Source: a virus
Direction: 5' to 3' (one strand)
Virus record (IMG/VR): IMGVR_UViG_3300022407_006288
Coordinates: 32,001-96,000 of that record
Length of the DNA: 64,000 nt
Positions 1 to 60,805 of this stretch are shown here, one piece after another (the stretch's first letter is position 1; each line of letters begins with the position of its first letter). Made by a program: the position numbers and the translations under genes. The notes beneath the pieces were generated by a model. That model made no database searches. It saw nothing but the letters and a program-made list of their open reading frames with translations, and was not told the origin of the DNA.

Positions 1-1986
1 TGATGAATATAGTGCTGTAGCAAATACACTAGCAACTCTTGATCTTCCTGCATTACTGTTTCCTTCAATACCGCCAGCTGTTGTAGCCTCTTGCATACTT
101 TCTCTATACGGTATCGGTCTTAGTTTGCCTTTTCTTAATGATTGAGCGGTTTTATCGGCTTCCTGTGCTGTTGGCGAAGCTGTTTTAACATCTGAAATAA
201 ACATTAACTGAATATTATCTCCATTAGCATTAGATCCGCTAATAGGTGCAGCAAGTGATTTTGCTTCTATTCTTTTTGTATCTAATGTGCTGCCGGCACT
301 ACTAATGCCTCCAGCTGCTATTATTCTTTGTGTTTGAGCTTGTCTATCGGGTGCCTCTGCATATTTAAGAATATTTGTATACCTGGCTTCTAGTGTTGGA
401 TTTATATTAGACTCGGCCAATGCCTTTTTAAATTCGTTAATTTTTTTAGTAAGATCTTCCGATTTTTGTGCGCTATTAATAAACTGTAATGTTTCTCTAA
501 GTTGTTGGGTTATATTTTTTTCAGTCTCTGCATTTTTTTGTGCAGTAACGCCTTGGTCTGAAATAGCCGAATCGTAGTAAATACCGCCAAATCTTGATAG
601 TGCAGCAGCAAATGAAAAATTCATGTTTAAGTCTAGATTATAAATTTGATCGTTTAAGCCTGTAAAAATATAATTATACTTTTTTTTCATAATTTTATTT
701 TTAGCATACTCAAGAAACCGTCTTTTTTCTGCAGCTAGCGTCTCGGGAGTTTGCCCGGTTTGTGAAGGGTCCACATCGGTCATACCTAAATCATACTCTA
801 CAATATAAATTGTTATTGCTACAGCGTTATCTTGTCTTAACATATCAAACGCAATTGGTTTGGTTTCTGTAACAACACGCCACAATTTTTTCATTTGATT
901 TGTTTCTTTATTTGACGGATTTGGTTGTCCCGCCGGAGTTTCAGAATTCTGCATTTTCTTTTGGAAATAATCCATGTTTTGACATAATGCGTCTACAATT
1001 TTGTCAATGCTAGTACCGGTATTAAAGGTTGCAGTTTTCTTTTTAAAGTCAACAAAGTCACCACTACGTGATGAATTTTTTGCCAAATCAGCAGGTGTTA
1101 GTAATTCCTTGCTAAAAGCAGGATCTACAACAATTCGATATGTATCGGGTATGCTATAGTTGTCAATTAGTTTTTCAAATTGATCTGCATTAATTTTATT
1201 TTCTAAATCTTTCATTGCACTCTCAAAGTCAGTAAGCTTTTCAAGTACCACATTATGCTGAATACTAAAATAAGAATTTGATTGTGCAAGCTCACTATAC
1301 ATAATTGCGTCAAACTGATATCTTGTGCCTATATGAGTGACATTTGCTTTTGAATTTGTAAGTTTAATAGGCCATACCCACTTTAATGCTGCTAACTCGC
1401 CTGGCGCGCCACCCTCTACAGATTGACCCGTACTAGAGTCTCTGCCTCTAAACTCTAACTGTAAAAATGTAGGCATGACTAGCCAATTACCAATTCCGAG
1501 TGAGACTGCCTGATAATATAGTTGGTCTAATAATCCGGCACCGGACGGTTCTATAATTTCAAATTTTACCAGAGTCTGCGTACCAGTGCCTGTTTCAACC
1601 GACGGTACAGCAATCCCGTGAATTTCAACATTAACTATTGTAAGATCAGATACTCCGCTTTCTGCAATAATTGTCTGGTTGGATAAATCAAGTATATTTC
1701 CGCTACTAGCATCTTCCAGCGATGTTATAAAAAGCTTCCAATGATAAGTATATGTGTCATAATTATCTAGAACATTAGGTTGAAATTGCAATAAGACTTT
1801 TTCTTCTGGTGCTGTTTCTTTATGTACATGTTTTTTATTATTATCTACAACAGTATAAGATGTTTTTACATATGCTCTGTTTTCGTTATATGTTTTTACA
1901 ACTGCTTTTCCGATAGTTGTATTTGCAACAGAATCTACTACCGAATTATAGGTTTCGGTGATACCAGACATAAAATCTTTAGACAT
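1..1986 (-). CDS. Large baseplate hub-like structural protein; 3' end lies outside the window
   Basis: Not in the ORF track. ATG at 1986 reads MSKDFMSGITETYNSVVDSVAN...LQFQPNVLDNYDTYTYHWKLFITS; the frame was read by eye at its start only. The NVLDNYDTYTYHW motif and position downstream of baseplate genes suggest a hub protein. Confidence 0.55.
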   Translation of the reverse strand, partial: MSKDFMSGITETYNSVVDSVANTTIGKAVVKTYNENRAYVKTSYTVVDNNKKHVHKETAPEEKVLLQFQPNVLDNYDTYTYHWKLFITSLEDASSGNILDLSNQTIIAESGVSDLTIVNVEIHGIAVPSVETGTGTQTLVKFEIIEPSGAGLLDQLYYQAVSLGIGNWLVMPTFLQLEFRGRDSSTGQSVEGGAPGELAALKWVWPIKLTNSKANVTHIGTRYQFDAIMYSELAQSNSYFSIQHNVVLEKLTDFESAMKDLENKINADQFEKLIDNYSIPDTYRIVVDPAFSKELLTPADLAKNSSRSGDFVDFKKKTATFNTGTSIDKIVDALCQNMDYFQKKMQNSETPAGQPNPSNKETNQMKKLWRVVTETKPIAFDMLRQDNAVAITIYIVEYDLGMTDVDPSQTGQTPETLAAEKRRFLEYAKNKIMKKKYNYIFTGLNDQIYNLDLNMNFSFAAALSRFGGIYYDSAISDQGVTAQKNAETEKNITQQLRETLQFINSAQKSEDLTKKINEFKKALAESNINPTLEARYTNILKYAEAPDRQAQTQRIIAAGGISSAGSTLDTKRIEAKSLAAPISGSNANGDNIQLMFISDVKTASPTAQEADKTAQSLRKGKLRPIPYRESMQEATTAGGIEGNSNAGRSRVASVFATALYSS

Positions 1987-1987
1987 A

Positions 1988-2275
1988 TTATTGCTTCAAT
2001 ATATTATTAGGAACATAAATTTCTAACCCTGCAACAAAATCGTTAATAGGGTCTATAATTAAATCAGGGTTTCTTACGCAAAATACCCACCATAGTCTCG
2101 GAGTACCGTATTCCTGCTGACTTAATAAATCTGGTCTTTGATTAAATTCAGGAGGAATAATAATAATTTTATCGTAGTCATTTTTTGGAACTATCCGAGG
2201 TACCCATAAATCAAGATACCAGTTTTTAATTGGCGTCAGAGAATAAGGACTTGTATCTTTTGTATTTTGTGCCAT
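1988..2275 (-). CDS. Baseplate wedge protein (gp53/LysM-tail-X-like)
   Basis: IPPEFNQRPDLLSQQEYGTPRLWWVFCVRNPDLI...GLEIYVP is the RPDLLS-YG-LWWV pattern of gp53-like proteins. Confidence 0.75.
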   Translation of the reverse strand: MAQNTKDTSPYSLTPIKNWYLDLWVPRIVPKNDYDKIIIIPPEFNQRPDLLSQQEYGTPRLWWVFCVRNPDLIIDPINDFVAGLEIYVPNNILKQ

Positions 2276-2982
2276 TATATGTATCCCCCACCTAACAGCT
2301 TACCCTGGCGGAATAAATCAAGATTAAAATTATTTCTAAGTGTAATTGGCACATACTGTACATCTAACTCAACTATAGCTGTTATATGTGTAGGCACATA
2401 CGTAAATCCGCTAGGGGATGGGACCGGGGAGCCAGTTACATTATTATTAAATGTAGAAAATGTAGTATTAATTGGTACATAATCAATATCTGCCGGGTAT
2501 GTGTAGTCAAACGACTTTACTATGACAGGTGTATTGTTAAATTGATAATCACCTAAATAATTAAACAATAATACCGGCGGTGGTGTACCGGCTTTGTCAT
2601 AAGGATTCAAACCAAAGTAAGATTTGGTAACTGATCTAAAAAACCAAATTATTGCCAGTAAATATAGTGCTTCTTGTGTGGTTTGTGCAGTAAATTCGGC
2701 TGTAATAGTTATTGGCTTAGGGTACGATCTAATATATGCATTATATCCATAGTTTGAATGTATAAACCCAGACGATTCATACTCGACTGTATTTCCTGTT
2801 GCCACAGACGGTGTATAAGGGAAAAGAACACCCCTAGTAGCCCACAAAGGATGTAAAATATTACTAGGTTCATTCGGCCCTAAGACATCGTTTGTGGCAT
2901 ATGAAACATTATTAATTATTGTAGTTCCAGATAACAACTTTTTAGGTTGTAATCTAGCTCTAAAATCGGCCGGTGAACCCAT
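2275..2982 (-). CDS. Baseplate/tail-tube initiator-like protein (gp48/gp54-like)
   Basis: GVLFPYTPSV...ITITAEFTAQT...PPPVLLFNYLG...PVIVKSFDYTYP is a tube-fold pattern; baseplate context and an upstream late promoter support it. Confidence 0.6.
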   Translation of the reverse strand: MGSPADFRARLQPKKLLSGTTIINNVSYATNDVLGPNEPSNILHPLWATRGVLFPYTPSVATGNTVEYESSGFIHSNYGYNAYIRSYPKPITITAEFTAQTTQEALYLLAIIWFFRSVTKSYFGLNPYDKAGTPPPVLLFNYLGDYQFNNTPVIVKSFDYTYPADIDYVPINTTFSTFNNNVTGSPVPSPSGFTYVPTHITAIVELDVQYVPITLRNNFNLDLFRQGKLLGGGYI

Positions 2983-3001
2983 TGTACTCTCCTATTTTGC
3001 T

Positions 3002-3009
3002 TATTTATC
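3002..3009 (-). promoter_or_regulatory. Late promoter GATAAATA for the baseplate operon
   Basis: TATTTATC on + strand, 20 nt upstream of the 2982 start; the same motif precedes most structural genes. Confidence 0.65.
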
Positions 3010-3043
3010 ACTCTTATAAATTGGTGTTTTTATAGCGAAACGG

Positions 3044-3072
3044 TTGACTTGCCGGTGTCATTTTGTTAAAAT
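3044..3072 (+). promoter_or_regulatory. Sigma70-type promoter for gp55-gp47-gp46
   Basis: TTGACT-17 bp-TAAAAT with an extended -10 TG. Confidence 0.7.
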
Positions 3073-3097
3073 AAGAAAAATTTGCTGAAGGGAAATT

Positions 3098-4009
3098 ATG
3101 AATATAATTATAGAAAATGAAGATGGTATTATGGCTCCAGTAACTATTTCAACCGAGCCGGTTAAAAAAATTAATTACTTAAATAATAAAGATATGTTGA
3201 AGGAAATTCACAGAAGTAAAAATTCTTTTTCCGAATATATAGATCCAAAATACAGTGATTACGATGTTATTGTTGAAGATATTCAAGAAATATTTTTACC
3301 AGAAACACAAGAAAAGGGTAAAATTACTCGTGCAGCAAGAATAGGTGTAACTGCATATGATGCTGCAATAGCAAGTTCGCTAATGTTGCCAAAATCAGAA
3401 AAACCAAAACTATCCGAGTTTAAAGTAAAGCCCGATACAATTTTGGTTGACGACTTGGTATTTAGGGTGCTTACATTTGATCATATCCCTTTATCTCCGG
3501 GCCGTAAAAAGAACCCAAAGAGCGAAGGCGACAAGTATGTTAAGTTAAATTTTTATCCATTTAAGCACTTTATTATTGAAAATGGTGTGGCCAAAGAGGT
3601 AGGAAGATCGCACTCAAAAAAAGGCAAATTTAATATAGAGGTTGGCTCTATTACAAACAAGCTTGCTAAAATGTTTATTCTCATGGTAAACAAATATGCA
3701 CAACGCGGTAACTGGCGAGGATATACTTATCTCGACGAAATGAAAGGGCAAGCATTGCTACAACTTGCGCAGATGGGCCTGCAGTTTGACGAATACAAGT
3801 CTGATAATCCGTTCTCCTATTATACGGCAAGTGTATCAAACAGTTTTACTCGTGTACTTAACTTAGAAAAGAAGAGTCAGGATCTCAGAGATGATTTGCT
3901 AATTGATAGCGGTGCAAGTCCAAGTTTTTCAAGACAACTTGCTGTTGAAGACGAAATCCGTAGGTTAAGAGAAGATGCACAGGAAACTGCCAAAGATGAC
4001 CACGAATAA
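3098..4009 (+). CDS. gp55: Late-transcription sigma factor
   Basis: YAQRGNWRGYTYLDEMKGQALLQL...FDEYKSDNPFSYYT...SFTRVLNLEKK matches T4 gp55-like proteins; upstream of gp47/gp46 as in T4. Confidence 0.88.
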   Translation: MNIIIENEDGIMAPVTISTEPVKKINYLNNKDMLKEIHRSKNSFSEYIDPKYSDYDVIVEDIQEIFLPETQEKGKITRAARIGVTAYDAAIASSLMLPKSEKPKLSEFKVKPDTILVDDLVFRVLTFDHIPLSPGRKKNPKSEGDKYVKLNFYPFKHFIIENGVAKEVGRSHSKKGKFNIEVGSITNKLAKMFILMVNKYAQRGNWRGYTYLDEMKGQALLQLAQMGLQFDEYKSDNPFSYYTASVSNSFTRVLNLEKKSQDLRDDLLIDSGASPSFSRQLAVEDEIRRLREDAQETAKDDHE

Positions 4010-5018
4010 TCAATTATTTCATCGCACTGTGGTTTTCTCTGATATCCACTTTGGTCTTCGACATAACTCAGCTGAACACAATCAAGATTGCCTGGATTTC
4101 ATAGATTGGCTAATTAGTGAAGCAAAGACAAGGGGTGCTGAAACCTGTCTAATGTTGGGCGACTGGCATCATCATAGATCCAATATCAATATTTTAACTT
4201 TAGATTATACAATGCAGGCATTGAGAAAACTTAATGCTGCATTTGATAAAACCTATATCATGGTAGGAAATCACGATCTTTTTTACAGAGAAAAACGTGA
4301 TATTCACTCCATGATTGTGGGTAGCGAATTTAATAATATTGTGTTGATTGATAAGCCGGTGATTGAAGGTAATGTTGCATTAATCCCTTGGCTGGTTGAA
4401 GAGGAGTGGATGCAAGTGTCAAAGATGCAGTCAAAGTATACCTTTGGTCACTTGGAGCTGCCAGGCTTTAAAATGAACGCCATGGTTGAAATGCCTGATC
4501 ACGGCACGCTAAATTCTTCGCATTTTAAGAATCAAGAATTGGTATTTTCGGGCCACTTTCATAAAAGACAAACAAAGGGCAGAATTAGTTACATTGGCAA
4601 TCCGTTTGGTCACAATTATTCAGATGTTTGGGATTTTGAACGTGGTGCCATGTACATGGAGTGGGATAAAGAGCCCGAGTTCTTGGATTATACAACCGGT
4701 CCTAGATTTATTAGTATTAATCTTTCAGCCCTATTAGAAAATCCTGATATTTATTTAAAGCCCAAAACCTATCTGCAAGTTATACTTGACATTGACATCA
4801 CATATGAGGAAGCTGCATTTTTAAGAGAAACTTTTCTGACACAATACAATGTAAGAGAATTTAAACTTATTAAAAATCAAGAAGAAGAAATAACAAAGTC
4901 TTATACAGCAGATAGCAAATTTAAGACAGTAGATCAAATTGTTATTGAAGAGCTAACAAATATTGATAGCGATTCTTTTAATACAAGTAAACTTGTAGAA
5001 ATTTATAATGGACTATAA
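3996..5018 (+). CDS. gp47: Recombination endonuclease subunit (Mre11/SbcD-like)
   Basis: Metallophosphoesterase motifs SDIHFG, GDWHH, GNHD, GHFH. Likely start is the ATG at 3996 (MTTNNQ). Confidence 0.92.
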   Translation: MTTNNQLFHRTVVFSDIHFGLRHNSAEHNQDCLDFIDWLISEAKTRGAETCLMLGDWHHHRSNINILTLDYTMQALRKLNAAFDKTYIMVGNHDLFYREKRDIHSMIVGSEFNNIVLIDKPVIEGNVALIPWLVEEEWMQVSKMQSKYTFGHLELPGFKMNAMVEMPDHGTLNSSHFKNQELVFSGHFHKRQTKGRISYIGNPFGHNYSDVWDFERGAMYMEWDKEPEFLDYTTGPRFISINLSALLENPDIYLKPKTYLQVILDIDITYEEAAFLRETFLTQYNVREFKLIKNQEEEITKSYTADSKFKTVDQIVIEELTNIDSDSFNTSKLVEIYNGL

Positions 5019-5023
5019 CATAC

Positions 5024-6826
5024 ATGTTAAAAATTAAATCATTAACTTTAAAGAATTTTTTATCTGTTGGCAATGTTACCCAATCAATCAGTTTTACCCA
5101 GCAGGATCTTGTGCTTGTACTGGGTGAAAATATTGACCTAGGCGGAAATGATAATAGAAATGGCGTGGGTAAATCGGCGATAGTAAATGCATTATCGTAT
5201 GCGTTGTATGGCGAGGCGTTAACAAAGATTCGTAAGGATAATTTGATTAATGCTACTAATGCTAAAAATATGTTTGTAACTCTTACATTTGAGATTAACG
5301 GCATAAATTATAAAGTTGAGCGCGGTCGCAAACCAGGTATCTTTAGATTTACTAAAGGCGATACCAATAGCGATATTAAAATTAATAGTGAACAAGATGA
5401 TAAAACCGACGAGGATGAATCACAGGGCGAAAGTCGTCTTACACAAATAGAAATTGAGCGCACTATTGGAATTTCCCATGACATGTTCAAGCACATACTT
5501 GCATTAAACACATATGTAGAACCTTTCTTGTCACTAAGAACAAGTGATCAACGTATTATTATTGAACAATTGCTAGGTATCACAAAACTATCTGAAAAGG
5601 CCGATAAGCTCAAGGAAGATAATAAACTAACAAAAGATGATATTAAAGAAGAGGAATTTCGAATATCGGCTGCAACTGAAGCAAATCGTCGAATTGAGCA
5701 GAATATATCCGGCCTTGAGATTAAGTCATCGGCATGGGATAAAGCAAAAGATATTAAGGTAACAAAACTTAGATCTTCAATTGAGAAAATGTTAAATGTA
5801 GAGATTGATGAAGAAATTACGCTCCACAAGTCTAAGAAAGAAGCACACGATCTTAATACAGAATACAAAGCTCTTGCAAAAGAACTAACAGGATTAGAAA
5901 AAGATGTAACAGATTGCGAAAAAATTATTGCAAAGTTAAAAAAGGTTGTATCTAATTCCACCGAGCAGGTTTGCCCGACATGTAGTCAGGCTATGGATCA
6001 GGCTACACATAAAAATGTGCATGATGATTACATTTTGCAATACAACGAAGCACAACTTAAACTTGACTATAAGACTGCTAAAAGAGACGAAGTCAAGTCG
6101 CTTGCTGCATCGGTGCTGTCCTTAATACCCACATTACCTAATACATTCTATGATACCATAGACGAGGCATATGCTCATAAAACCACACTGGATACACTGG
6201 GTAACAGTTTGTCTGCCGAGATTAATTCCGAAAACCCATTTATAGATCAAATTGATACCCTTAGAAAAGATGGTTTACAAGAAGTTGATTTTTCTAATCT
6301 TAACGAATTAGTAAAACTAAAAGATCATCAGGAGTTCTTACTCAAGTTACTGACAAGTAAAGATAGTTTTATACGCAAGAAAATTATTGATCAAAACTTG
6401 TCATTCTTAAATCATCGCTTATCTTACTATATTGAAAATATTGGATTACCTCACAACGTAAAATTTAAGTCAGACCTTGAAGTTGAAATTAGCATGTATG
6501 GTAAAGAGTTTGACTTTGATAATTTAAGTCGAGGCGAACGAACCAGACTTATACTATCACTATCTTGGGCATTTAGGGATGTTTTTGAAAATATGAATAA
6601 CAAGATTAATCTATTATTTATTGATGAATTAGTAGACAACGGGATTGATACAGCAGGCACCGAGTCTGTACTACGAATACTGAAAAATATGAGTCGCACC
6701 AATGGGAAAAATATCTTTTTAATTTCCCATCGGGATGAATTTATTGGCAGGGTAACAAACGTGCTTAAGGTTATAAAAGAAGGCGGTTTTACGTCAATAG
6801 AAAAGATGACAACTTCTGAAGTTTGA
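5024..6826 (+). CDS. gp46: Recombination ATPase subunit (Rad50/SbcC-like)
   Basis: Walker A NGVGKS, zinc hook CPTC, signature LSRGE, Walker B LLFIDE, ISH. Confidence 0.95.
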   Translation: MLKIKSLTLKNFLSVGNVTQSISFTQQDLVLVLGENIDLGGNDNRNGVGKSAIVNALSYALYGEALTKIRKDNLINATNAKNMFVTLTFEINGINYKVERGRKPGIFRFTKGDTNSDIKINSEQDDKTDEDESQGESRLTQIEIERTIGISHDMFKHILALNTYVEPFLSLRTSDQRIIIEQLLGITKLSEKADKLKEDNKLTKDDIKEEEFRISAATEANRRIEQNISGLEIKSSAWDKAKDIKVTKLRSSIEKMLNVEIDEEITLHKSKKEAHDLNTEYKALAKELTGLEKDVTDCEKIIAKLKKVVSNSTEQVCPTCSQAMDQATHKNVHDDYILQYNEAQLKLDYKTAKRDEVKSLAASVLSLIPTLPNTFYDTIDEAYAHKTTLDTLGNSLSAEINSENPFIDQIDTLRKDGLQEVDFSNLNELVKLKDHQEFLLKLLTSKDSFIRKKIIDQNLSFLNHRLSYYIENIGLPHNVKFKSDLEVEISMYGKEFDFDNLSRGERTRLILSLSWAFRDVFENMNNKINLLFIDELVDNGIDTAGTESVLRILKNMSRTNGKNIFLISHRDEFIGRVTNVLKVIKEGGFTSIEKMTTSEV

Positions 6827-51514: not shown

Positions 51515-52078
51515 ATGGCCGATATGACAGGACTAACAACTGATCCATTTTTCTCATTACTTGCTCAAGTGCAAGACGTCAAGACCAAAGTTTCAGACAG
51601 CATTTTTGAAAACTACAAGCTACAAATAGCACAATCAAACGACATCAACAACCGTGCAATGCAAGTTGCATTGCATGACACAGCCGCATTTGCTGATTTG
51701 AAAAATGCGGTTTCTAATGGTACATTGCAGACCATGCTTGCTGCTGCACGCACTGATGCTGCTATTGCCGCAACTGCAATGAGCACACAACGTGTTGTCA
51801 TGGAACAGGGCGAAGCTACTCGTGGATTAATTGCTGCACTAAACACACAAAACTTGAATACTGCATTGATCAACACAAACACAGCTCTTTACAGTCTAAA
51901 CGGACAGTATTCCGGATTAGGTCTTGCATATGGCGGCGCTGTTGCTGCTGTTCAAAGCGCAAATTCTGTTAGCTCAGTGAATGCACTACACAGTGCTGTA
52001 TCCGGTCAGAGATTGATCAATACAGGTAGCATGGCTTCTACATCACAGACATCTACACCGACATCTATTGGCGGCTAA
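51515..52078 (+). CDS. Ala/Asn/Gln/Thr-rich hypothetical protein, paralog 1
   Basis: First 37 aa identical to 52296; AAGGA RBS; no Cys or Trp. Confidence 0.8.
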   Translation: MADMTGLTTDPFFSLLAQVQDVKTKVSDSIFENYKLQIAQSNDINNRAMQVALHDTAAFADLKNAVSNGTLQTMLAAARTDAAIAATAMSTQRVVMEQGEATRGLIAALNTQNLNTALINTNTALYSLNGQYSGLGLAYGGAVAAVQSANSVSSVNALHSAVSGQRLINTGSMASTSQTSTPTSIGG

Positions 52079-52295: not shown

Positions 52296-52856
52296 ATGGC
52301 CGATATGACAGGACTAACAACTGATCCATTCTTTTCATTACTTGCCCAAGTGCAAGATGTCAAGACCAAAGTTTCAGACAGCATTTTTGAAAACTACAAG
52401 CTACAAGTAGCACAAGCAAATGACATCAACAATCGCGCAATGCAAGTAGCATTAAGCAACGCAACTGCACTCACCGACTTGAAGCAGGCAACTACTGAAA
52501 GCACACTACAAACCATGCTTGCTGCTGCACGCACTGATGCTGCTATTGGCGCAACTGCAATGAGCACACAAAGTGTTATTATGCAGCAAGGTGAAGCAAC
52601 TCGTGGATTAGTTGGCGGATTGAACACACAAAACTTGAATACCGCATTGATCAACACAAACACAGCTCTTTCTAGCCTAAACGGTCAATACTCTGGCTTA
52701 GGTCTTGCATATGGCGGCGCTGTTGCTGCTGTTCAAAGCGCAAATTCTGTTAACGCAGTAAATGCTCTTAATAGCGCAATTGCAACACAAGGCCTGGTTA
52801 ACACAGGTACTATGACTGGAACTACACAAACCGCAACACCAACATCTATTCGTTAA
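52296..52856 (+). CDS. Ala/Asn/Gln/Thr-rich hypothetical protein, paralog 2
   Basis: Tandem duplicate of 51515. Confidence 0.8.
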   Translation: MADMTGLTTDPFFSLLAQVQDVKTKVSDSIFENYKLQVAQANDINNRAMQVALSNATALTDLKQATTESTLQTMLAAARTDAAIGATAMSTQSVIMQQGEATRGLVGGLNTQNLNTALINTNTALSSLNGQYSGLGLAYGGAVAAVQSANSVNAVNALNSAIATQGLVNTGTMTGTTQTATPTSIR

Positions 52857-52873: not shown

Positions 52874-53047
52874 ATGTTTGGATCTAACATTGGATACGGG
52901 GCCTGGTCGCCACGTGGATATTTAGGTGCCGGCATAGGATATCCATATTATGGATATTCTGGATGTGGATACCCGTACGGCGGATGCCCATACGGTGGAT
53001 ATCCAGGATGGGGATTTTACAATTCTCCCTATCTTCCGTTAATTTAA
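52874..53047 (+). CDS. Tyr/Gly/Pro-rich peptide (57 aa), not in the ORF track
   Basis: MFGSNIGYGAWSPRGYLGAGIGYPYYGYSGCGYPYGGCPYGGYPGWGFYNSPYLPLI*; AAGGAGG RBS. Confidence 0.75.
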   Translation: MFGSNIGYGAWSPRGYLGAGIGYPYYGYSGCGYPYGGCPYGGYPGWGFYNSPYLPLI

Positions 53048-53110: not shown

Positions 53111-53314
53111 ATGTACCCAGGATACTTATATCCCTATTACAGAAGCTATGCATATCCTTACCCAAGTTGGGTGTATGGTGGTTATACAGGTTATGGTGGC
53201 TACGGTGGTTATGGATCAAATATTATAGGCAGCGCAATTGCCAATCAAAGTGTTATAAACACCGGCAACATTGCAGGATTTACACAAACAGCCACACCCA
53301 CAGTTATTTGGTAA
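53111..53314 (+). CDS. Tyr/Gly/Pro-rich peptide sharing the C-terminal motif of 51515/52296
   Basis: MYPGYLYPYYRSYAYPYP...GYGGYGGYG...SAIANQSVINTGNIAGFTQTATPT; AAGGAG RBS. Confidence 0.75.
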   Translation: MYPGYLYPYYRSYAYPYPSWVYGGYTGYGGYGGYGSNIIGSAIANQSVINTGNIAGFTQTATPTVIW

Positions 53315-54030: not shown

Positions 54031-54522
54031 ATGTTTAACAATTTAGGTATATTTAGCAATAATTTAATCACCCCTATTATACTTCGTGGTGCCACATCGC
54101 CGTGTCTAGCACCACGTATTCCTGTATGTCCGAGTCCGGCTTCCGATGCCATAGAAATCGGCGGCATTGGTAACGATATTATTAACATCGGCGGCGGGGG
54201 TGTAGGACCACCCGGCCCCCCAGGACCACCCGGTACTATTGGACTGGTACCAGTGACTGATGTAGCAACACCCACATACACGGCATTAAGCACTGACTAT
54301 TTTTTATGTGTATTAACCAATGGATTAGTTACTATTACATTACCAACAGGTATATTAGGGACAGTATACATTGTTAAAGATTGTTTTGGTGATGCAGCAA
54401 ACAACCCAATTACTATTCAGGGTACAGGCGGGCAGTTAGTCGATGGCAGTACAGCCACTATTAACACCAATTTTGGTAGCTTACAATTCGTATTCAATGG
54501 ATTTGATTGGAGCATAGTATGA
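54031..54522 (+). CDS. Short collagen-like protein with a C-terminal beta domain
   Basis: GVGPPGPPGPPGTIG; C-terminal domain TITLP...YIVKD...ITI...VDG...GSLQFVFNGFDW. Confidence 0.75.
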   Translation: MFNNLGIFSNNLITPIILRGATSPCLAPRIPVCPSPASDAIEIGGIGNDIINIGGGGVGPPGPPGPPGTIGLVPVTDVATPTYTALSTDYFLCVLTNGLVTITLPTGILGTVYIVKDCFGDAANNPITIQGTGGQLVDGSTATINTNFGSLQFVFNGFDWSIV

Positions 54523-54564
54523 TTTATTTGATAAAATTAACAATAGACTTTAAGGAGAATTAAT

Positions 54565-55722
54565 ATGTTAGGTATATTTTCAGCAAACTTTCCTCAAGGA
54601 CCTCTGCGTCCGGGAATTAACTTACGTAGACCGGTTCGGGTGTTTGCAGGACAAATTGCAAATTATAACCGCGGATATGGTTCAGTAAACACCAACTCAA
54701 TGAGTGGTACAAATCTACTTCGTTTAACTGTTACTAGTACAACACCGCAAACAATTCCTCAAGGACCCGGTATTGTGCCTCTTAATGACATGTTATTGAC
54801 CAGTACAATTAATGGAAACTTTGTGTCAACATTTGACGCTGACTACGGTATTGTCGGCGACTTAATCGATATTACTGCCGCAGGTGCCGCCGCTAATACA
54901 GCGTTAGCTGCACAGTTAGCCGCATTACCCGGTGGCGTTCCACACGGTGCTGTATTTGGCAACGGCGAAGTTTTAACACCCGGTATTTACGATGTAGTAA
55001 CTCCTGCTGCTATTCAAGGCATTTTGACATTGAACGGTGGCGGTGATCCCAATGCATTGTTTGTGATCAGAGTTGCCGGCGCATTAACCAGTGTGGCCGC
55101 AAGTCAGGTGTTATTAACAAATGGTGCCACAGCCAACAATGTGTTCTGGGTAAGTCAAGGTGCCACAGCACTAGGTGCTAATACCATCTTTCGTGGCACA
55201 GCATTGGCAGTAGGGGGAGCCGCTGGCATAGGTGCCGGCAGCATAGTTAATGGTAGATTGTTATCGACACTTGGCGCAGTTACTACTGACACCAGTATAG
55301 TAACACAACCAGGTGCTACAACAACTGCTATTGCATTGGGTGTGCTTGAAAACTTTGCTCTATTCACCAATAGCGGTGCGGTAGCCAATACAGGGACAAG
55401 CATCATAACTGGGAACATTGGAACCAATCTAGGACTTATTACTGGATACGGACTCCCAACTATAGTAAATGGCAACGTATATATTCCGGGAAGTTTGGCT
55501 GCTGGTCCAGTAGCCGCTGACTTTGGTATCTATAAGAATGGAGTATTGATTCCGGGTACATTAGTTTCAGTATCCGGTCCAACAACAATTACTGCCGCTC
55601 ACGTGACATCAACGGGTCCTGTGGTATTGTTAGTGGGTGATGTAGTTACTGCTAGAGCAACTGCTGTACTAGGCACATTAACAGTGAATACAAGAACATT
55701 AACTTTACAACAGGTACCGTAA
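54565..55722 (+). CDS. Ice-binding protein (DUF3494), circularly permuted, inside a BclA-CTD-like domain
   Basis: LTPGIY...LTLNGGGDPNALFVI...LTSVAASQVLLTNGATANNVFW...GRLL, followed by LGVLENFALFTNSGAVANTGTSIITGNIG. Confidence 0.8.
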   Translation: MLGIFSANFPQGPLRPGINLRRPVRVFAGQIANYNRGYGSVNTNSMSGTNLLRLTVTSTTPQTIPQGPGIVPLNDMLLTSTINGNFVSTFDADYGIVGDLIDITAAGAAANTALAAQLAALPGGVPHGAVFGNGEVLTPGIYDVVTPAAIQGILTLNGGGDPNALFVIRVAGALTSVAASQVLLTNGATANNVFWVSQGATALGANTIFRGTALAVGGAAGIGAGSIVNGRLLSTLGAVTTDTSIVTQPGATTTAIALGVLENFALFTNSGAVANTGTSIITGNIGTNLGLITGYGLPTIVNGNVYIPGSLAAGPVAADFGIYKNGVLIPGTLVSVSGPTTITAAHVTSTGPVVLLVGDVVTARATAVLGTLTVNTRTLTLQQVP

Positions 55723-55797
55723 TATAGTTTATTTATAGAGCCTACCCGAATTAAAGAGAGACAAAATTTAACTAACAACATCACAAGGAAAATTAAA

Positions 55798-56199
55798 ATG
55801 TCATATACAAACAATCCAACTTCGATACTTGCCGGACCAGGTATCACCGTTGTACCAACAACAGGTACCGGTGCAGAAGTAGTTACCATCAGTGCTAGCG
55901 GCGGCGGATTCGTAGATATTAGAACTGCTGTTGCAACTCCTGTTACGGTAGTGGCTGCAACTGATAATATCATTGATGTAGCTGTTCCAGGTCCAGTTGC
56001 CGTAGCAGTAACATTACCTGCTGGTGTACTAGGCCAAGAGTTCACAATCAAAGATGGATTAGGTTTAGCAGCACCTGCAACTCCAATCACTATCACACCA
56101 ACTGCTGGTACAATTGATGGTGCAGCAACTGCAGTTATCGATGCACCATATGGTTCATTAACATTTGTGTACAATGGTACGCAATGGTTGATTCTATAA
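55798..56199 (+). CDS. Beta-domain protein paralogous to the C-terminus of 54031
   Basis: VTLPAG..G.EFTIKD...PITI...TIDG...YGSLTFVYNGTQW. Confidence 0.75.
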   Translation: MSYTNNPTSILAGPGITVVPTTGTGAEVVTISASGGGFVDIRTAVATPVTVVAATDNIIDVAVPGPVAVAVTLPAGVLGQEFTIKDGLGLAAPATPITITPTAGTIDGAATAVIDAPYGSLTFVYNGTQWLIL

Positions 56200-57360: not shown

Positions 57361-58112
57361 AAGCAAAGCCCTTTTGGTCGGGCTATAAATTACAAAAGGA
57401 TGTCAGCGATGATCGAGATTTTGTATATACGCCCACCAATAAGCCCCTACGGGATGTTGTTGACCTGCGAAAATGGGCAAGCCCCATTGAAGATCAAAAA
57501 TATCTAGGAAGTTGTACAGCAAATGCAATTGTGGGTGCACATGAGTTATTGACAATTAAAGAATTTCCAAAACAATTTGTTGACCTCAGTAGACTATTTG
57601 TGTACTATAACGAGCGATTAATAGAAGGCACAATTAGCGAAGATTCCGGTGCATACCTAAGAACAGGAATTAAAGCAGTAAAGACTTATGGAATATCTAC
57701 TGAAGCACTGTGGCCTTATAATATAAGTAAGTTTTCAACTACACCATCTCCAGAAAGTTACCAAGATGCAAAGTATAGAAACATTAAAAATTATTATCGT
57801 GTAGATAGCAATGATAAAATGCTTGATGCACTAAATAATGATATACCTGTGGTTGTAGGCGTGTTGCTTTATGAAGCATTTGATTCACTGGATAAAAATA
57901 ATTACGTACTTGGTTTACCAGCTGACACAGAATCATTTACAGGAGGGCATGCCATGGTGCTAGTTGGATATGATTTACCAAAAAAATTATTTTTAGTTAG
58001 AAATAGTTTTGGCATTGATTGGTGTATTGATGGATATTGCTGGATTACATTTGCATACATGGAAGAAAAATTATTAGATGCTTGGATATTTGATATTGAT
58101 TTAATTACTTAA
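57354..58112 (+). CDS. Papain-like C1 cysteine peptidase; start non-canonical or frameshifted
   Basis: Frame open from 57348: DRDFVY...VDLRKWASPIEDQKYLGSCTANA, GGHAM, VRNSFG..W. No ATG/GTG/TTG precedes the catalytic Cys. Confidence 0.8.
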   Translation: MLKAKPFWSGYKLQKDVSDDRDFVYTPTNKPLRDVVDLRKWASPIEDQKYLGSCTANAIVGAHELLTIKEFPKQFVDLSRLFVYYNERLIEGTISEDSGAYLRTGIKAVKTYGISTEALWPYNISKFSTTPSPESYQDAKYRNIKNYYRVDSNDKMLDALNNDIPVVVGVLLYEAFDSLDKNNYVLGLPADTESFTGGHAMVLVGYDLPKKLFLVRNSFGIDWCIDGYCWITFAYMEEKLLDAWIFDIDLIT

Positions 58113-59938: not shown

Positions 59939-60805
59939 TTAAGAAACAATTGGTATAGCTGTTGCTGTTACACTTGCAGGAGGTGCTGCAAAAGTAATTG
60001 TAGCTGATACATAACCAGTACCGCCAACTATGTTGGTAATTCCTGTTACTGCTCCGCTGGCGTTTATTACTGCTGTAGCAGAAGCACCTGTACCCGGACC
60101 ACCAATAGTCACTATTGGTGCAACTGAGTAATAGTTGCCGCCAACAAGACTGGTAATACTAGTAAATGCTCCAGCATTAACGACAGCAGTAGCTGTTGCT
60201 GTAACCGCTGCGGCTGGCGCAGCAATTGTGGCTGTTGCGTTTGTTGCATATCCCGAACCTGGATTTCCAACAGTGATAGCAGTTACAACGCCACCAACAA
60301 CTGTTGTTGTCAATATAGCACCTGTACCCGGCGGGCTTGAAATAGTAATTGATGGTACAGATGTATATCCGCGACCGCCATTAGTAATTTGAAAGCTAAG
60401 AATTTGTCCAGCCACACCCATATTAATTAGGTCAGCTTGCCCCAATGCAACAGCCGGCCGTGTTGACCAGGTATAGCTGACAACTGTACCATTTTCAAAA
60501 ACATCAACACGATATTGTGCTATCTTTGAGCAAGGTACTGGTGAACCTCCAAACGGAGTTGCAAGAATAAAACATTCTCCCGTATTTAGCGCACTAATAC
60601 TTGATGCATTAACCATGAATACAATTTCAGGTGCATGTATTTGTGCTGAATCTTGAACCATATAAGCACTTGAACCTGTTTGTTTTACAATGAATGCATC
60701 CGAGTATGATACGCCATCAGCAAATTTAACACCGTTTACTCTTATATGATTTGATCCAGGACCAACTGGTTCTCCGAACCATTTTTTCTGAATTGGTTTT
60801 CCCAT
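59939..60805 (-). CDS. Virion structural protein with GxGY beta repeats
   Basis: MGKPIQKKWFG N-terminus; ITNGGRGYTS, GNPGSGY and VGGTGY repeats; late promoter at 60885-60892. Confidence 0.6.
   Translation of the reverse strand: MGKPIQKKWFGEPVGPGSNHIRVNGVKFADGVSYSDAFIVKQTGSSAYMVQDSAQIHAPEIVFMVNASSISALNTGECFILATPFGGSPVPCSKIAQYRVDVFENGTVVSYTWSTRPAVALGQADLINMGVAGQILSFQITNGGRGYTSVPSITISSPPGTGAILTTTVVGGVVTAITVGNPGSGYATNATATIAAPAAAVTATATAVVNAGAFTSITSLVGGNYYSVAPIVTIGGPGTGASATAVINASGAVTGITNIVGGTGYVSATITFAAPPASVTATAIPIVS

What the first reader, a model, noticed from the sequence alone, without database searches (positions are those of the whole stretch)
54565..55722. Circularly permuted DUF3494 ice-binding domain inserted in a BclA-like beta-sandwich
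Seen: the usual middle and C-terminal DUF3494 segments (LTPGIY, GDPNALFVI, NGATANNVFW, GRLL) come first. The usual N-terminal segment (LGVLENFALFTNSGAVANTGTSIITGNIG) comes after them. The flanks (TTPQTIPQG...; FGIYKNGVLIPGT...TRTLTLQQV) look like two halves of a BclA/C1q-type jelly roll. Known: in DUF3494 beta-solenoids the N-terminal coil packs beside the C-terminal coil, so this permutation is structurally feasible. Inference: a trimer-displayed antifreeze or ice-adhesion domain encoded by a phage, probably derived from the junction of a tandem-DUF3494 gene.
Basis: partly seen in the sequence, partly recalled or inferred. Interest (0 to 1): 0.85.

Follow-up and report, generated by a model that had tools for sequence, protein, structure and literature searches.

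The report
Permuted ice-binding domain on phage fibre
A jumbo-phage gene encodes a probably three-fold fibre head in which an ice-binding-type beta-helix, with its first coil moved to the end, is spliced into a TNF/C1q-like jelly roll; the same module tips many phage tail fibres and secreted proteins of cold-loving Flavobacteria, so virions may stick to ice or to another unchanging surface.

Summary
ORF 54565-55722 (+, 385 aa) matches Pfam Ice_binding/DUF3494 in swapped order: residues 103-246 match profile 63-207, and residues 271-307 match profile 5-52.

An AlphaFold2 model (pLDDT 89) shows two nested domains:

The cut lies at the coil-1/helix junction, so the insert's ends are neighbours. 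The five-Ala row that mutagenesis defined as IBPv's ice-binding face is conserved, including the Ala in the relocated coil.

The window comes from a 131-kb fragment of a jumbo myophage. About 100 metagenomic homologues share the architecture. In other phages the same head ends collagen-like and other tail-fibre shafts. Antarctic and glacier Flavobacteria carry it in tandem gene arrays, behind a signal peptide and a region assigned to Pfam's phage-tail-like trimerisation family.

The structural reading is supported. A virion fibre head is well supported by context. Ice binding is plausible but untested, and host-receptor binding is the main rival. I found no paper describing this permuted, nested form.

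The parts
54552..54557 (+). Shine-Dalgarno-like AAGGAG, 7 nt before the ATG
   Evidence: Read directly from the sequence.
54565..55722 (+). Whole gene, 385 codons plus stop: fibre-head protein with a nested, permuted DUF3494 domain
   Evidence: ORF list and translation. About 100 full-length homologues at 39-94% identity.
54565..54708 (+). Residues 1-48: low-confidence N-terminal peptide with the motif LGIFS..FPQGP.RPG; proposed virion-anchor or adaptor segment
   Evidence: pLDDT below 50. The LGIFS motif occurs in this genome only at the starts of this gene and of the upstream collagen-like gene 54031. It is replaced by another shared N-terminal type (MSY..PLATTT.PGIV) in other family members. 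No Sec-type hydrophobic stretch, by inspection.
54709..54861 (+). Residues 49-99: N-terminal half of the TNF/C1q/BclA-like jelly roll (strands 53-58, 62-64, 71-79, 84-97)
54862..55323 (+). Residues 100-253: DUF3494 long alpha-helix (103-120) and coils 2-6 of the beta-helix ('BODY')
55330..55500 (+). Residues 256-312: relocated first coil of DUF3494 ('COIL'), now following the last coil
   Evidence: Pfam profile 5-52. Aligns to the N-terminal coils of both IBPv domains. An HMM built from this segment finds the N-terminal coil in front of BODY in canonical and tandem proteins. Ten unrelated beta-helix structures align through to model residues 308-312.
55501..55719 (+). Residues 313-385: C-terminal half of the jelly roll (strands 316-324, 334-338, 342-355, 360-369, 371-384)
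   Evidence: Same VIA alignments as the N-terminal half. Foldseek matches to BxpB/ExsF over about 79 aa at 2.5-2.9 A.
54031..54522 (+). Upstream neighbour (163 aa): same MFNNLGIFS start, (GPP)3 collagen-like run, C-terminal virion-appendage beta-sandwich
55798..56199 (+). Downstream neighbour (133 aa) with the same appendage beta-sandwich as 54031 and a different N-terminus
   Evidence: 43% identity to the C-domain of 54031. phrog_15797 and baseplate phrog_20556. 91% identical copy in the same position in L004.

Best explanation
The gene encodes a small virion fibre or decoration protein made of three parts. (1) A flexible N-terminal peptide of about 48 residues docks it to the particle (inferred). 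(2) A TNF/C1q/BclA-type jelly roll trimerises, as such heads do on collagen stalks (fold shown, trimer inferred). (3) A complete DUF3494 beta-helix is inserted in a loop of the jelly roll between strands 84-97 and 316-324 (shown by the model). The DUF3494 domain is circularly permuted. The chain enters at the long alpha-helix, runs through coils 2-6, then forms what is normally coil 1. In the canonical fold coil 1 stacks on the last coil. The old coil-1/helix junction is the new pair of termini, so both ends of the insert lie side by side. That is what insertion into a loop needs. The trimer would present three copies of the flat Ala/Thr face that is the ice-binding site in IBPv. The insert is the most conserved part of the family, and the same head is used by phage fibres and by secreted flavobacterial proteins. 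The ligand is therefore probably an invariant surface. Ice is the most likely candidate, tethering virions in the ice-associated habitat of their hosts. The permutation most likely arose from a tandem DUF3494 gene by loss of the first coil and of everything after the second coil (inferred).
For: Architecture:
- The Pfam order is swapped, with the whole profile covered once.
- The sequence is collinear with IBPv residues 48-278.
- The AF2 model has pLDDT 89, and above 90 for residues 50-385.
- Canonical topology, 'final coil next to the initial coil': PMC11645318. IBPv's ice-binding row Ala41-Ala212-Ala193-Leu174-Ala147 joins coil 1 to the last coil (PMC5673226).

Ligand face:
- These five positions map to A272, A238, A219, A200 and A173. 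They are Ala in 23, 30, 28, 28 and 28 of 30 family members.
- Mean pairwise identity is 0.67-0.68 in the insert, 0.42-0.49 in the jelly roll and 0.35 at the N-terminus.

Virion and trimer:
- The same head ends a 650-aa collagen-like tail fibre (L011; phrog_6320 2.8e-32) and an 898-aa one (P0276; Collagen 6e-40, tail-fibre phrogs 4e-46). It also ends other tail-fibre or minor-tail shafts (P0250, P0259, P0254, P0291).
- In L009 and L010 the gene lies between the portal and the head protease, decoration and capsid genes.
- Here it lies between two genes carrying a domain otherwise seen in tailspike, baseplate and capsid-spike proteins. It shares its N-terminal motif with the collagen-like one.
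- Bacterial homologues carry a signal peptide plus a region assigned to PF26696, 'phage tail like trimerisation region' (precomputed Pfam; Atlas; N-termini).

Habitat:
- The best genomic matches with the full architecture are in Aequorivita antarctica, Flavobacterium weaverense, F. xueshanense and related isolates.

Origin:
- The closest canonical relatives are tandem DUF3494 proteins of Bacteroidota.
- All permuted forms group together in a quick tree (SH-aLRT 83).
Against: - No ice-binding, trimer or virion data exist for this protein, and the models are monomers.
- Ice-binding sites cannot be predicted reliably from sequence. DUF3494 proteins also occur in organisms from non-icy habitats (PMC11645318).
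- In this phage the protein has no shaft. The gene lies among genes of unknown or non-structural function (RNA ligase, methyltransferase, sigma-like protein, peptidase, rIIA/B), not in the main tail module.
- C-terminal heads of tail fibres are usually host-receptor binders.
- The aligners used are sequential and no coordinates were available. The placement of residues 256-312 on the canonical coil-1 site is therefore inferred from homology and solenoid continuity, not from direct superposition.
- The tree support for a single origin is modest, and the careful tree search did not finish.
Confidence: 0.55

Rival explanations
1. Host receptor-binding head. The trimeric jelly roll with its DUF3494 beta-helices is the distal tip of a phage fibre and recognises a cell-surface glycan or exopolysaccharide of the host, probably a member of the Bacteroidota. 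DUF3494 would act as a general carbohydrate or surface adhesin with no role for ice.
Against: The inserted domain is the most conserved part of the protein (0.67-0.68 against 0.42-0.49 for the scaffold), whereas receptor-binding tips usually diversify. The Ala row at the IBPv ice-binding positions is nearly invariant across phage lineages with different anchors. The same head occurs on signal-peptide proteins of Flavobacteria in arrays of 2-5 genes, where host recognition by a phage is not the function.
Confidence: 0.28
2. Auxiliary cryoprotection gene. The protein is not part of the virion. It is made in the infected cell and released at lysis or exported, and acts as a soluble ice-binding protein that protects host or progeny from freeze damage, as proposed for viral PF11999 genes in Arctic viromes.
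For: Viral 'ice-binding-like' PF11999 genes have been read as cryoprotective auxiliary genes (PMC11515562). In this phage the gene lies outside the recognisable tail module. The closest solved relative, IBPv, has measured thermal hysteresis (PMC5673226).
Against: The phage protein has no signal peptide, while its bacterial homologues all have one. It shares an N-terminal motif with a collagen-like appendage protein next door. Homologous heads are covalently fused to tail-fibre shafts or encoded inside head modules.
Confidence: 0.12
3. Decayed remnant. The gene is a fragment of a tandem DUF3494 gene fused by accident to unrelated sequence, with two incomplete solenoid pieces and no function.
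For: The sequence is collinear with the junction of a tandem protein.
Against: Each part of the Pfam profile is present exactly once. The model is confident and compact. About 100 homologues down to 39% identity keep the same length and order, with many invariant Gly, Ala and Asn residues. At least 30 clusters at 50% identity carry the architecture.
Confidence: 0.02

Closest known systems
DUF3494 / IBP-1 fold ice-binding proteins (IBPv 5UYT, AnpIBP 7BWX, SfIBP_1 6BG8, ColAFP 3WP9, TisAFP 3VN3, FfIBP 4NU2)
   Same: Right-handed triangular beta-helix with a long alpha-helix alongside. 28-38% identity and rmsd 1.2-1.8 A over about 150 residues. Passes the Pfam PF11999 threshold. The row of small residues at the IBPv ice-binding site is conserved.
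   Different: Chain order is helix, coils 2-6, then coil 1, instead of coil 1, helix, coils 2-6. The domain is nested inside another domain. There is no signal peptide. It is encoded by a phage. Raymond (PMC11645318) states that the solved DUF3494 structures all followed the same pattern, differing only in their capping regions.
Tandem (multi-domain) DUF3494 proteins of Bacteroidota, e.g. IBPv and T9SS-sorted 'ice-binding family proteins'
   Same: Closest canonical sequence relatives (41-48% identity). The query aligns in one piece across a domain A to domain B junction.
   Different: They keep whole COIL-BODY units in series and carry T9SS sorting tails. In the crystal structure the second coil 1 belongs to domain B. 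Forcing the collinear 213-column alignment onto 5UYT gives rmsd 17.5 A, as expected if that coil folds back here.
Collagen-stalked TNF/C1q-like trimeric heads: BclA C-terminal domain, ExsFA/BxpB, C1q globular heads, PLTL and BC2L-CN lectins, cyanophage A-1(L) and A4 fibre tips
   Different: No sequence-level match to any such family. The jelly roll is interrupted by an insert of about 215 residues, larger than itself. Whether it binds anything on its own is unknown.
Non-canonical DUF3494 proteins (ncDUF3494, Raymond 2024, PMC11645318)
   Same: Another natural variation of the DUF3494 solenoid, found in bacteria of icy habitats. One member shows ice binding.
   Different: That variation changes the number of coils and keeps the chain order. 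Here the coil number is normal and the order is permuted.
Viral 'ice-binding-like' PF11999 genes reported as auxiliary genes in Arctic viromes (PMC11515562)
   Same: Phage-encoded members of the same Pfam family, linked to Flavobacteriales and to cold surface waters.
   Different: They are described only at the level of a Pfam hit and read as host cryoprotection. No permutation, nesting or fibre context is reported. P0001 has no tblastn match in 50,697 deposited phage genomes and matches no PHROG.
MpIBP, the ice adhesin of Marinomonas primoryensis (from my own knowledge, not tested here)
   Same: Works-like analogue for the proposed mechanism: an ice-binding domain at the tip of a long surface fibre holds the organism to ice.
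   Different: Unrelated fold (Ca-dependent RTX-like solenoid), a giant bacterial adhesin, not trimeric and not viral.

Membership tests
Pfam PF11999 Ice_binding (DUF3494) | Whole-protein score above the curated gathering threshold | tested here: met
   100.2 bits against a cut-off of 28.7, E 1.6e-28. Same in the genome scan.
Pfam PF11999 Ice_binding (DUF3494) | Canonical chain order: initial coil, long alpha-helix, then the remaining coils | tested here: not met
   Residues 103-246 match profile 63-207 and residues 271-307 match profile 5-52. The order is reversed in all 99 full-length family members scored with segment HMMs.
IBP-1 fold | Triangular right-handed beta-helix with a long parallel alpha-helix | tested here: met
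   [not shown]
IBP-1 fold | Coil 1 stacked on the last coil, completing the solenoid and the flat face | tested here: inconclusive
   Ten generic beta-helix structures align continuously to model residues 308-312, and the segment is homologous to coil 1. Only sequential aligners were available and no coordinates, so no direct permuted superposition was made.
Ice-binding proteins (function) | Flat face with a row of small residues at the mutagenesis-defined IBPv site | tested here: met
   IBPv A41, A212, A193, L174 and A147 (PMC5673226) map to A272, A238, A219, A200 and A173. These are Ala in 23-30 of 30 homologues.
Ice-binding proteins (function) | Measured ice shaping, recrystallisation inhibition or thermal hysteresis | not testable with these tools
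   Needs recombinant protein.
NCBIfam NF045625 IBP_CFB (equivalog) | Score above the equivalog cut-off | tested here: not met
   56 bits against a cut-off of 400, partial match 126-246.
TNF/C1q/BclA-like jelly-roll heads | Jelly-roll beta-sandwich formed by one chain | tested here: met
   [not shown]
TNF/C1q/BclA-like jelly-roll heads | Sequence match to a curated family model (C1q, TNF, BclA C-terminal domain) | tested here: not met
   No Pfam hit for either flank at E up to 10. phmmer against PDB finds only ice-binding proteins.
TNF/C1q/BclA-like jelly-roll heads | Homotrimer | not testable with these tools
   Only monomer prediction was available. Indirect support: collagen-like shafts on homologues and a region assigned to PF26696 on bacterial homologues (precomputed Pfam; Atlas leads; the family is not in the local Pfam copy).
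Circular permutant (general definition) | Every segment of the parent domain present once, order rotated about a single cut | tested here: met
   Profile positions 5-52 and 56/63-207 are each covered once. The cut lies between profile positions about 52 and 56.
Phage tail-fibre or virion-appendage proteins | Presence in the virion | not testable with these tools
   No isolate or proteome. Context only: fusions to tail-fibre shafts, location in head modules, appendage-domain neighbours.

The most novel reading that the evidence does not exclude
Phage particles, here a jumbo myophage and elsewhere phages with collagen-like tail fibres, carry trimeric fibre tips that bind ice through three permuted DUF3494 faces. 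Virions would then be held on ice surfaces and in brine veins alongside their ice-associated flavobacterial hosts. This would be the first virion-borne ice adhesin, and a natural trimeric scaffold for multivalent ice binding.
Probability: 0.3. Interest if true: 0.85.

Novelty: new variant of a known kind. Interest (0 to 1): 0.66.

Why it matters
- **Fold variation.** The solved DUF3494 structures all followed one chain topology (PMC11645318). This is a natural circular permutant nested in a trimerising jelly roll, and it forms a large family rather than a single oddity. That widens what counts as an ice-binding-type protein in annotation, since current models see it only as two disordered hits.
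- **Protein design.** Cutting at the coil-1/helix junction brings the two ends together, so the domain can be spliced into a loop of another protein. It also offers a ready trimeric display. From my own knowledge, joining several ice-binding units is known to raise antifreeze activity.
- **Phage biology.** Viral PF11999 genes would shift from 'host cryoprotection genes' to structural fibre heads. This raises a testable idea: some virions adhere to ice, or to another invariant surface, rather than only to cells.

Tried and rejected
2. tblastn of the protein against 50,697 deposited phage genomes gave no match, and PHROGs gave no family. In BFVD no viral protein matched the whole architecture; the best was a giant-virus DUF3494 over 154 columns, plus C1q-like half-matches.
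3. I first took PF26696 'PTL_trimer' to be the PLTL-lectin jelly roll. The Atlas names it 'phage tail like trimerisation region' and places it on residues 22-95 of the bacterial homologues, not on the jelly roll. The family is absent from the local Pfam copy. I dropped that reading.
4. The T4-type late promoter TATAAATA is not enriched (10 sites against 8.7 expected) and none precedes the gene on the + strand. The sigma-70 and terminator scans were uninformative.
5. I tried to decide by strand parity whether the insert sits at the apex of the jelly roll. The C-terminal five strands suggest the end opposite the C-terminus, but the N-terminal strand count is ambiguous, so I leave it open.
6. The careful maximum-likelihood search did not finish. 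Only the quick tree is reported, and every third jelly-roll member was kept.
7. Literature: no paper holds 'DUF3494' with 'circular permutation' or 'ice-binding' with 'TNF-like'. 'DUF3494' with 'phage' gave one unrelated preprint.
8. Earlier scan notes on this genome concern other genes and did not bear on this one. A look-up by sequence found nothing.

Full report
**1. The observation**

The window has an ORF at 54565..55722 on the + strand (385 aa). It is preceded by AAGGAG seven bases upstream.

Pfam PF11999 (Ice_binding, DUF3494) matches at E 1.6e-28 (100.2 bits, cut-off 28.7) in two stretches. Scanning the pieces separately gives two matches:
- Residues 103-246 match profile positions 63-207.
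- Residues 271-307 match profile positions 5-52.

A six-frame scan of the phage record gives the same two pieces in the same order. So the whole profile is present once, rotated about a cut between profile positions about 52 and 56.

Against PDB sequences the best hit is the two-domain protein IBPv (5uyt_A, E 2.5e-53). Residues 95-319 align in one piece with chain residues 48-278. That stretch is domain A after its first coil, the inter-domain linker, and the first coil of domain B. Residues 256-296 also align with the first coil of domain A.

**2. Structure**

I aligned 30 homologues (39-88% identical to the query, A1) and ran AlphaFold2.
- Mean pLDDT is 89 and pTM 0.73. Residues 50-385 are almost all above 90, and residues 1-47 are below 50.
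- Ten unrelated beta-helix proteins (two-partner-secretion domains, pectate lyase, autotransporter passengers) align continuously from about residue 120 to residues 308-312. The relocated coil therefore continues the same solenoid after the last DUF3494 coil.
- Forcing the collinear alignment onto the IBPv crystal gives rmsd 17.5 A over 213 columns. This is expected if the coil folds back onto its own domain instead of starting a second one.

**3. Why the permutation is feasible**

The IBPv paper lists the first row of the ice-binding site of domain A as Ala41-Ala212-Ala193-Leu174-Ala147 (PMC5673226). That puts a coil-1 residue directly beside the last coil.

In this protein the last coil is simply joined to coil 1 by an eight-residue linker. 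The chain is opened where coil 1 used to enter the helix. The new N- and C-termini of the insert are thus residues that are three positions apart in the parent chain. This explains how a 215-residue domain can be spliced into a loop of the jelly roll between strands 84-97 and 316-324.

I could not superpose coil 1 directly. The aligners are sequential and coordinates are not exposed, so this last step rests on homology and solenoid continuity.

**4. The putative binding face**

I mapped the IBPv row onto the query using the alignment, with the numbering offset checked against Cys165.
- The five positions map to A272, A238, A219, A200 and A173. All are Ala, including the position where IBPv domain A has the activity-lowering Leu174.
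- In the 30-member alignment they are Ala in 23, 30, 28, 28 and 28 sequences.
- Thr214, whose mutation lowers IBPv_a activity, maps to T240.
- Mean pairwise identity by segment: 0.67 for the coils, 0.68 for the relocated coil, 0.54 for the helix, 0.42 and 0.49 for the two jelly-roll halves, and 0.35 for the N-terminus.

The inserted domain is therefore the most constrained part of the protein.

**5. The genome**

- The window is bases 32001-96000 of a 130,872-base IMG/VR virus record, rated 33% complete by CheckV.
- It encodes a portal (phrog_213, 2e-101), tail sheath, baseplate and tail-fibre proteins, gp46-like SbcC, and rIIA and rIIB.
- The portal is 55% identical to those of jumbo phages such as PA5oct and 49-52% to Atu_ph07 and Phosso.

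It is therefore a fragment of a jumbo myophage. The host is unknown.

**6. Family and architectures**

A word-indexed search found about 90 full-length homologues of 360-391 aa, nearly all unnamed metagenomic proteins. I built segment HMMs from A1 (JN, BODY, COIL, JC) and scored the 151 retrieved proteins.

| Architecture | Count |
|---|---|
| JN-BODY-COIL-JC | 99 |
| BODY-COIL-JC | 11 |
| BODY-COIL followed by other domains | 5 |
| Canonical or tandem COIL-BODY units, mostly with T9SS sorting tails | rest |

A full HMMER search of 1.84 billion cluster representatives gave 12,455 hits at E up to 1e-3. Among the best 150, about 30 representatives carry the whole permuted, nested head in one stretch. 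Nearly all have it at the very C-terminus of proteins 348-966 aa long. One of them (P0239) has BODY-COIL-BODY-COIL.

In a quick tree of BODY segments, all permuted forms fall in one group (SH-aLRT 83). A clade of cellular Bacteroidota forms (97) is sister to the phage-type clade (99). The careful search did not finish.

**7. Evidence for a virion fibre head and a trimer**

- In IMG/VR contig L011 the head ends a 650-aa protein whose N-terminal 340 residues are collagen-like tail-fibre repeats (phrog_6320 2.8e-32). BLASTP aligns query residues 78-329 to its residues 350-592 at 37% identity.
- P0276 (898 aa) has Collagen at 6e-40 and tail-fibre phrogs at 4e-46. P0250, P0259, P0254 and P0291 have other tail-fibre, minor-tail or tailspike N-terminal parts.
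- In L009 and L010 the gene lies between the portal and the head protease, decoration and major capsid genes. L013 is similar.
- The product of 54031 has a (GPP)3 run and begins MFNNLGIFS. That is the same motif that opens this protein and its orthologues, and it is found nowhere else in the genome at a gene start.
- Other family members carry a different N-terminus (MSY..PLATTT.PGIV..). In their contigs it is again shared with genes bearing other head types.
- The gene order is conserved in related contigs, and one contig has two tandem copies of the DUF3494 gene.
- The phage proteins have no signal peptide.

Interchangeable N-terminal adaptors with interchangeable heads are the usual pattern of phage fibre genes.

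**8. Cellular relatives**

In one-genome-per-species contigs, the best matches that include the C-terminal jelly-roll half are in:
- Aequorivita antarctica SW49
- Flavobacterium weaverense
- F. xueshanense
- Flavobacterium spp. ZT3R17 and LB3P6
- a Flavobacteriaceae isolate, GE-10
- a MAG labelled Chryseobacterium gleum

In several of these the genes form tandem arrays of two to five paralogues. Nearly all of these proteins begin with a typical signal peptide followed by a conserved region of about 70 residues (VGIGT..P..S..L....KG.L.PRMT..ER..I..P..GL.IYNT). Precomputed Pfam annotation and the protein atlas assign that region to PF26696, 'phage tail like trimerisation region'. This is a lead: the atlas score is 0.88 and the family is not in the local Pfam copy.

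Many of the named isolates come from Antarctic or glacier habitats. That statement rests on my own knowledge of these species. It suggests, but does not prove, a link with cold habitats.

**9. Function**

What is shown:
- a complete, permuted DUF3494 solenoid nested in a TNF/C1q-like jelly roll;
- strong purifying selection on the insert and on the positions equivalent to the IBPv ice-binding row;
- use of the module as the C-terminal head of phage fibres and of secreted flavobacterial proteins.

What is inferred:
- trimerisation;
- incorporation in the virion of this particular phage through the N-terminal peptide;
- the ligand.

I favour an invariant ligand, most likely ice. The binding domain is the most conserved part, the same head serves both phages and bacteria, the closest solved relative has measured thermal hysteresis, and the nearest cellular carriers are psychrophiles.

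The main rival is ordinary host-receptor binding by a fibre tip. It fits the position of the module and the lectin-like scaffold, but fits the conservation pattern and the bacterial arrays less well.

A soluble cryoprotectant role has been proposed for viral PF11999 genes (PMC11515562). It fits poorly with the missing signal peptide and the fibre fusions.

**10. Origin**

The closest canonical relatives are tandem DUF3494 proteins of Bacteroidota. The query is collinear with one domain-length window across their repeat junction, and a BODY-COIL-BODY-COIL form exists. This fits permutation by duplication followed by loss of both ends. The steps themselves are not shown.

**11. Novelty**

Phage-encoded PF11999 genes have been reported, but only as Pfam hits. 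Coil-number variants of DUF3494 have been described.

In the library I could search I found:
- no paper combining DUF3494 with circular permutation;
- no paper combining ice binding with TNF-like domains;
- no match in deposited phage genomes;
- no PHROG family;
- no whole-architecture match among predicted viral structures.

The proteins exist in public databases, where sources that name them use 'hypothetical protein' or 'Ice-binding-like'. I rate this a new variant of a known kind, well supported structurally and open functionally.

Noticed in passing
[not shown]
   Followed up: partly
window 51515-52078 and 52296-52856: Two adjacent paralogous genes (187 and 186 aa) have identical first 37 residues (MADMTGLTTDPFF...) and Ala/Thr/Ser/Asn-rich tails. 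Neither matches Pfam, and the one scanned against PHROGs (51515) has no match. A homologue lies upstream of the same cluster in L004.
   Followed up: no
window 52874-53047 and 53111-53314: Two short ORFs (57 and 67 aa) are made largely of Gly/Tyr/Pro repeats (GYPYGG, YGGYGGYG). The second ends with a tail resembling the ends of the 51515 and 52296 paralogues. They may be low-complexity structural or glue-like peptides, or non-coding.
   Followed up: no
window 57531-58112: A papain-family cysteine peptidase (PF00112 7.7e-11, phrog_16701) is encoded just downstream of the fibre-like cluster. A 52% identical copy sits in the same place in L004.
   Followed up: no
window 59939-60805 (- strand): A 287-aa protein has repeated matches to Ig-like segments of virion structural, baseplate and tail-fibre PHROGs (phrog_460 2.5e-15 and 13 others). 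A homologue again lies near the DUF3494 gene in L006. It may be a further decoration protein.
   Followed up: no
L064 (Flavobacteriaceae GE-10) 70-6567; L069 (Flavobacterium sp. LB3P6) 96-5274; L065; L063: Cold-habitat Flavobacteria carry head-to-tail arrays of two to five paralogues: signal peptide, PF26696-like 'phage tail like trimerisation' region, then the permuted nested DUF3494 head. This is a secreted trimeric ice-binding-type family that seems undescribed.
   Followed up: partly
P0239 (696 aa, metagenomic): Segment HMMs give BODY-COIL-BODY-COIL, and the profile match runs on into the C-terminal jelly-roll half. This is a two-unit version of the permuted insert and a possible intermediate between tandem and single permuted forms.
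   Followed up: no
P0093, P0094, P0096, P0098, P0103: These are permuted DUF3494 units (BODY-COIL) with no jelly-roll half after them. P0093 and P0103 instead carry an ILEI domain (PF15711). They nest inside the phage-type clade in the quick tree. Some may be truncated at contig ends.
   Followed up: no
L005 3869-4987 and 4989-6089: One viral contig has two tandem copies of the DUF3494 head gene. They are 53% and 42% identical to the query, and both have the MSY..PLA..-type N-terminus.
   Followed up: no
window 55155-55475 and 55599-56174 (- strand): Long antisense ORFs overlap the gene. They also appear 'conserved' in related contigs, but only as shadows of the conserved + strand frame. They should not be taken as genes.
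   Followed up: partly
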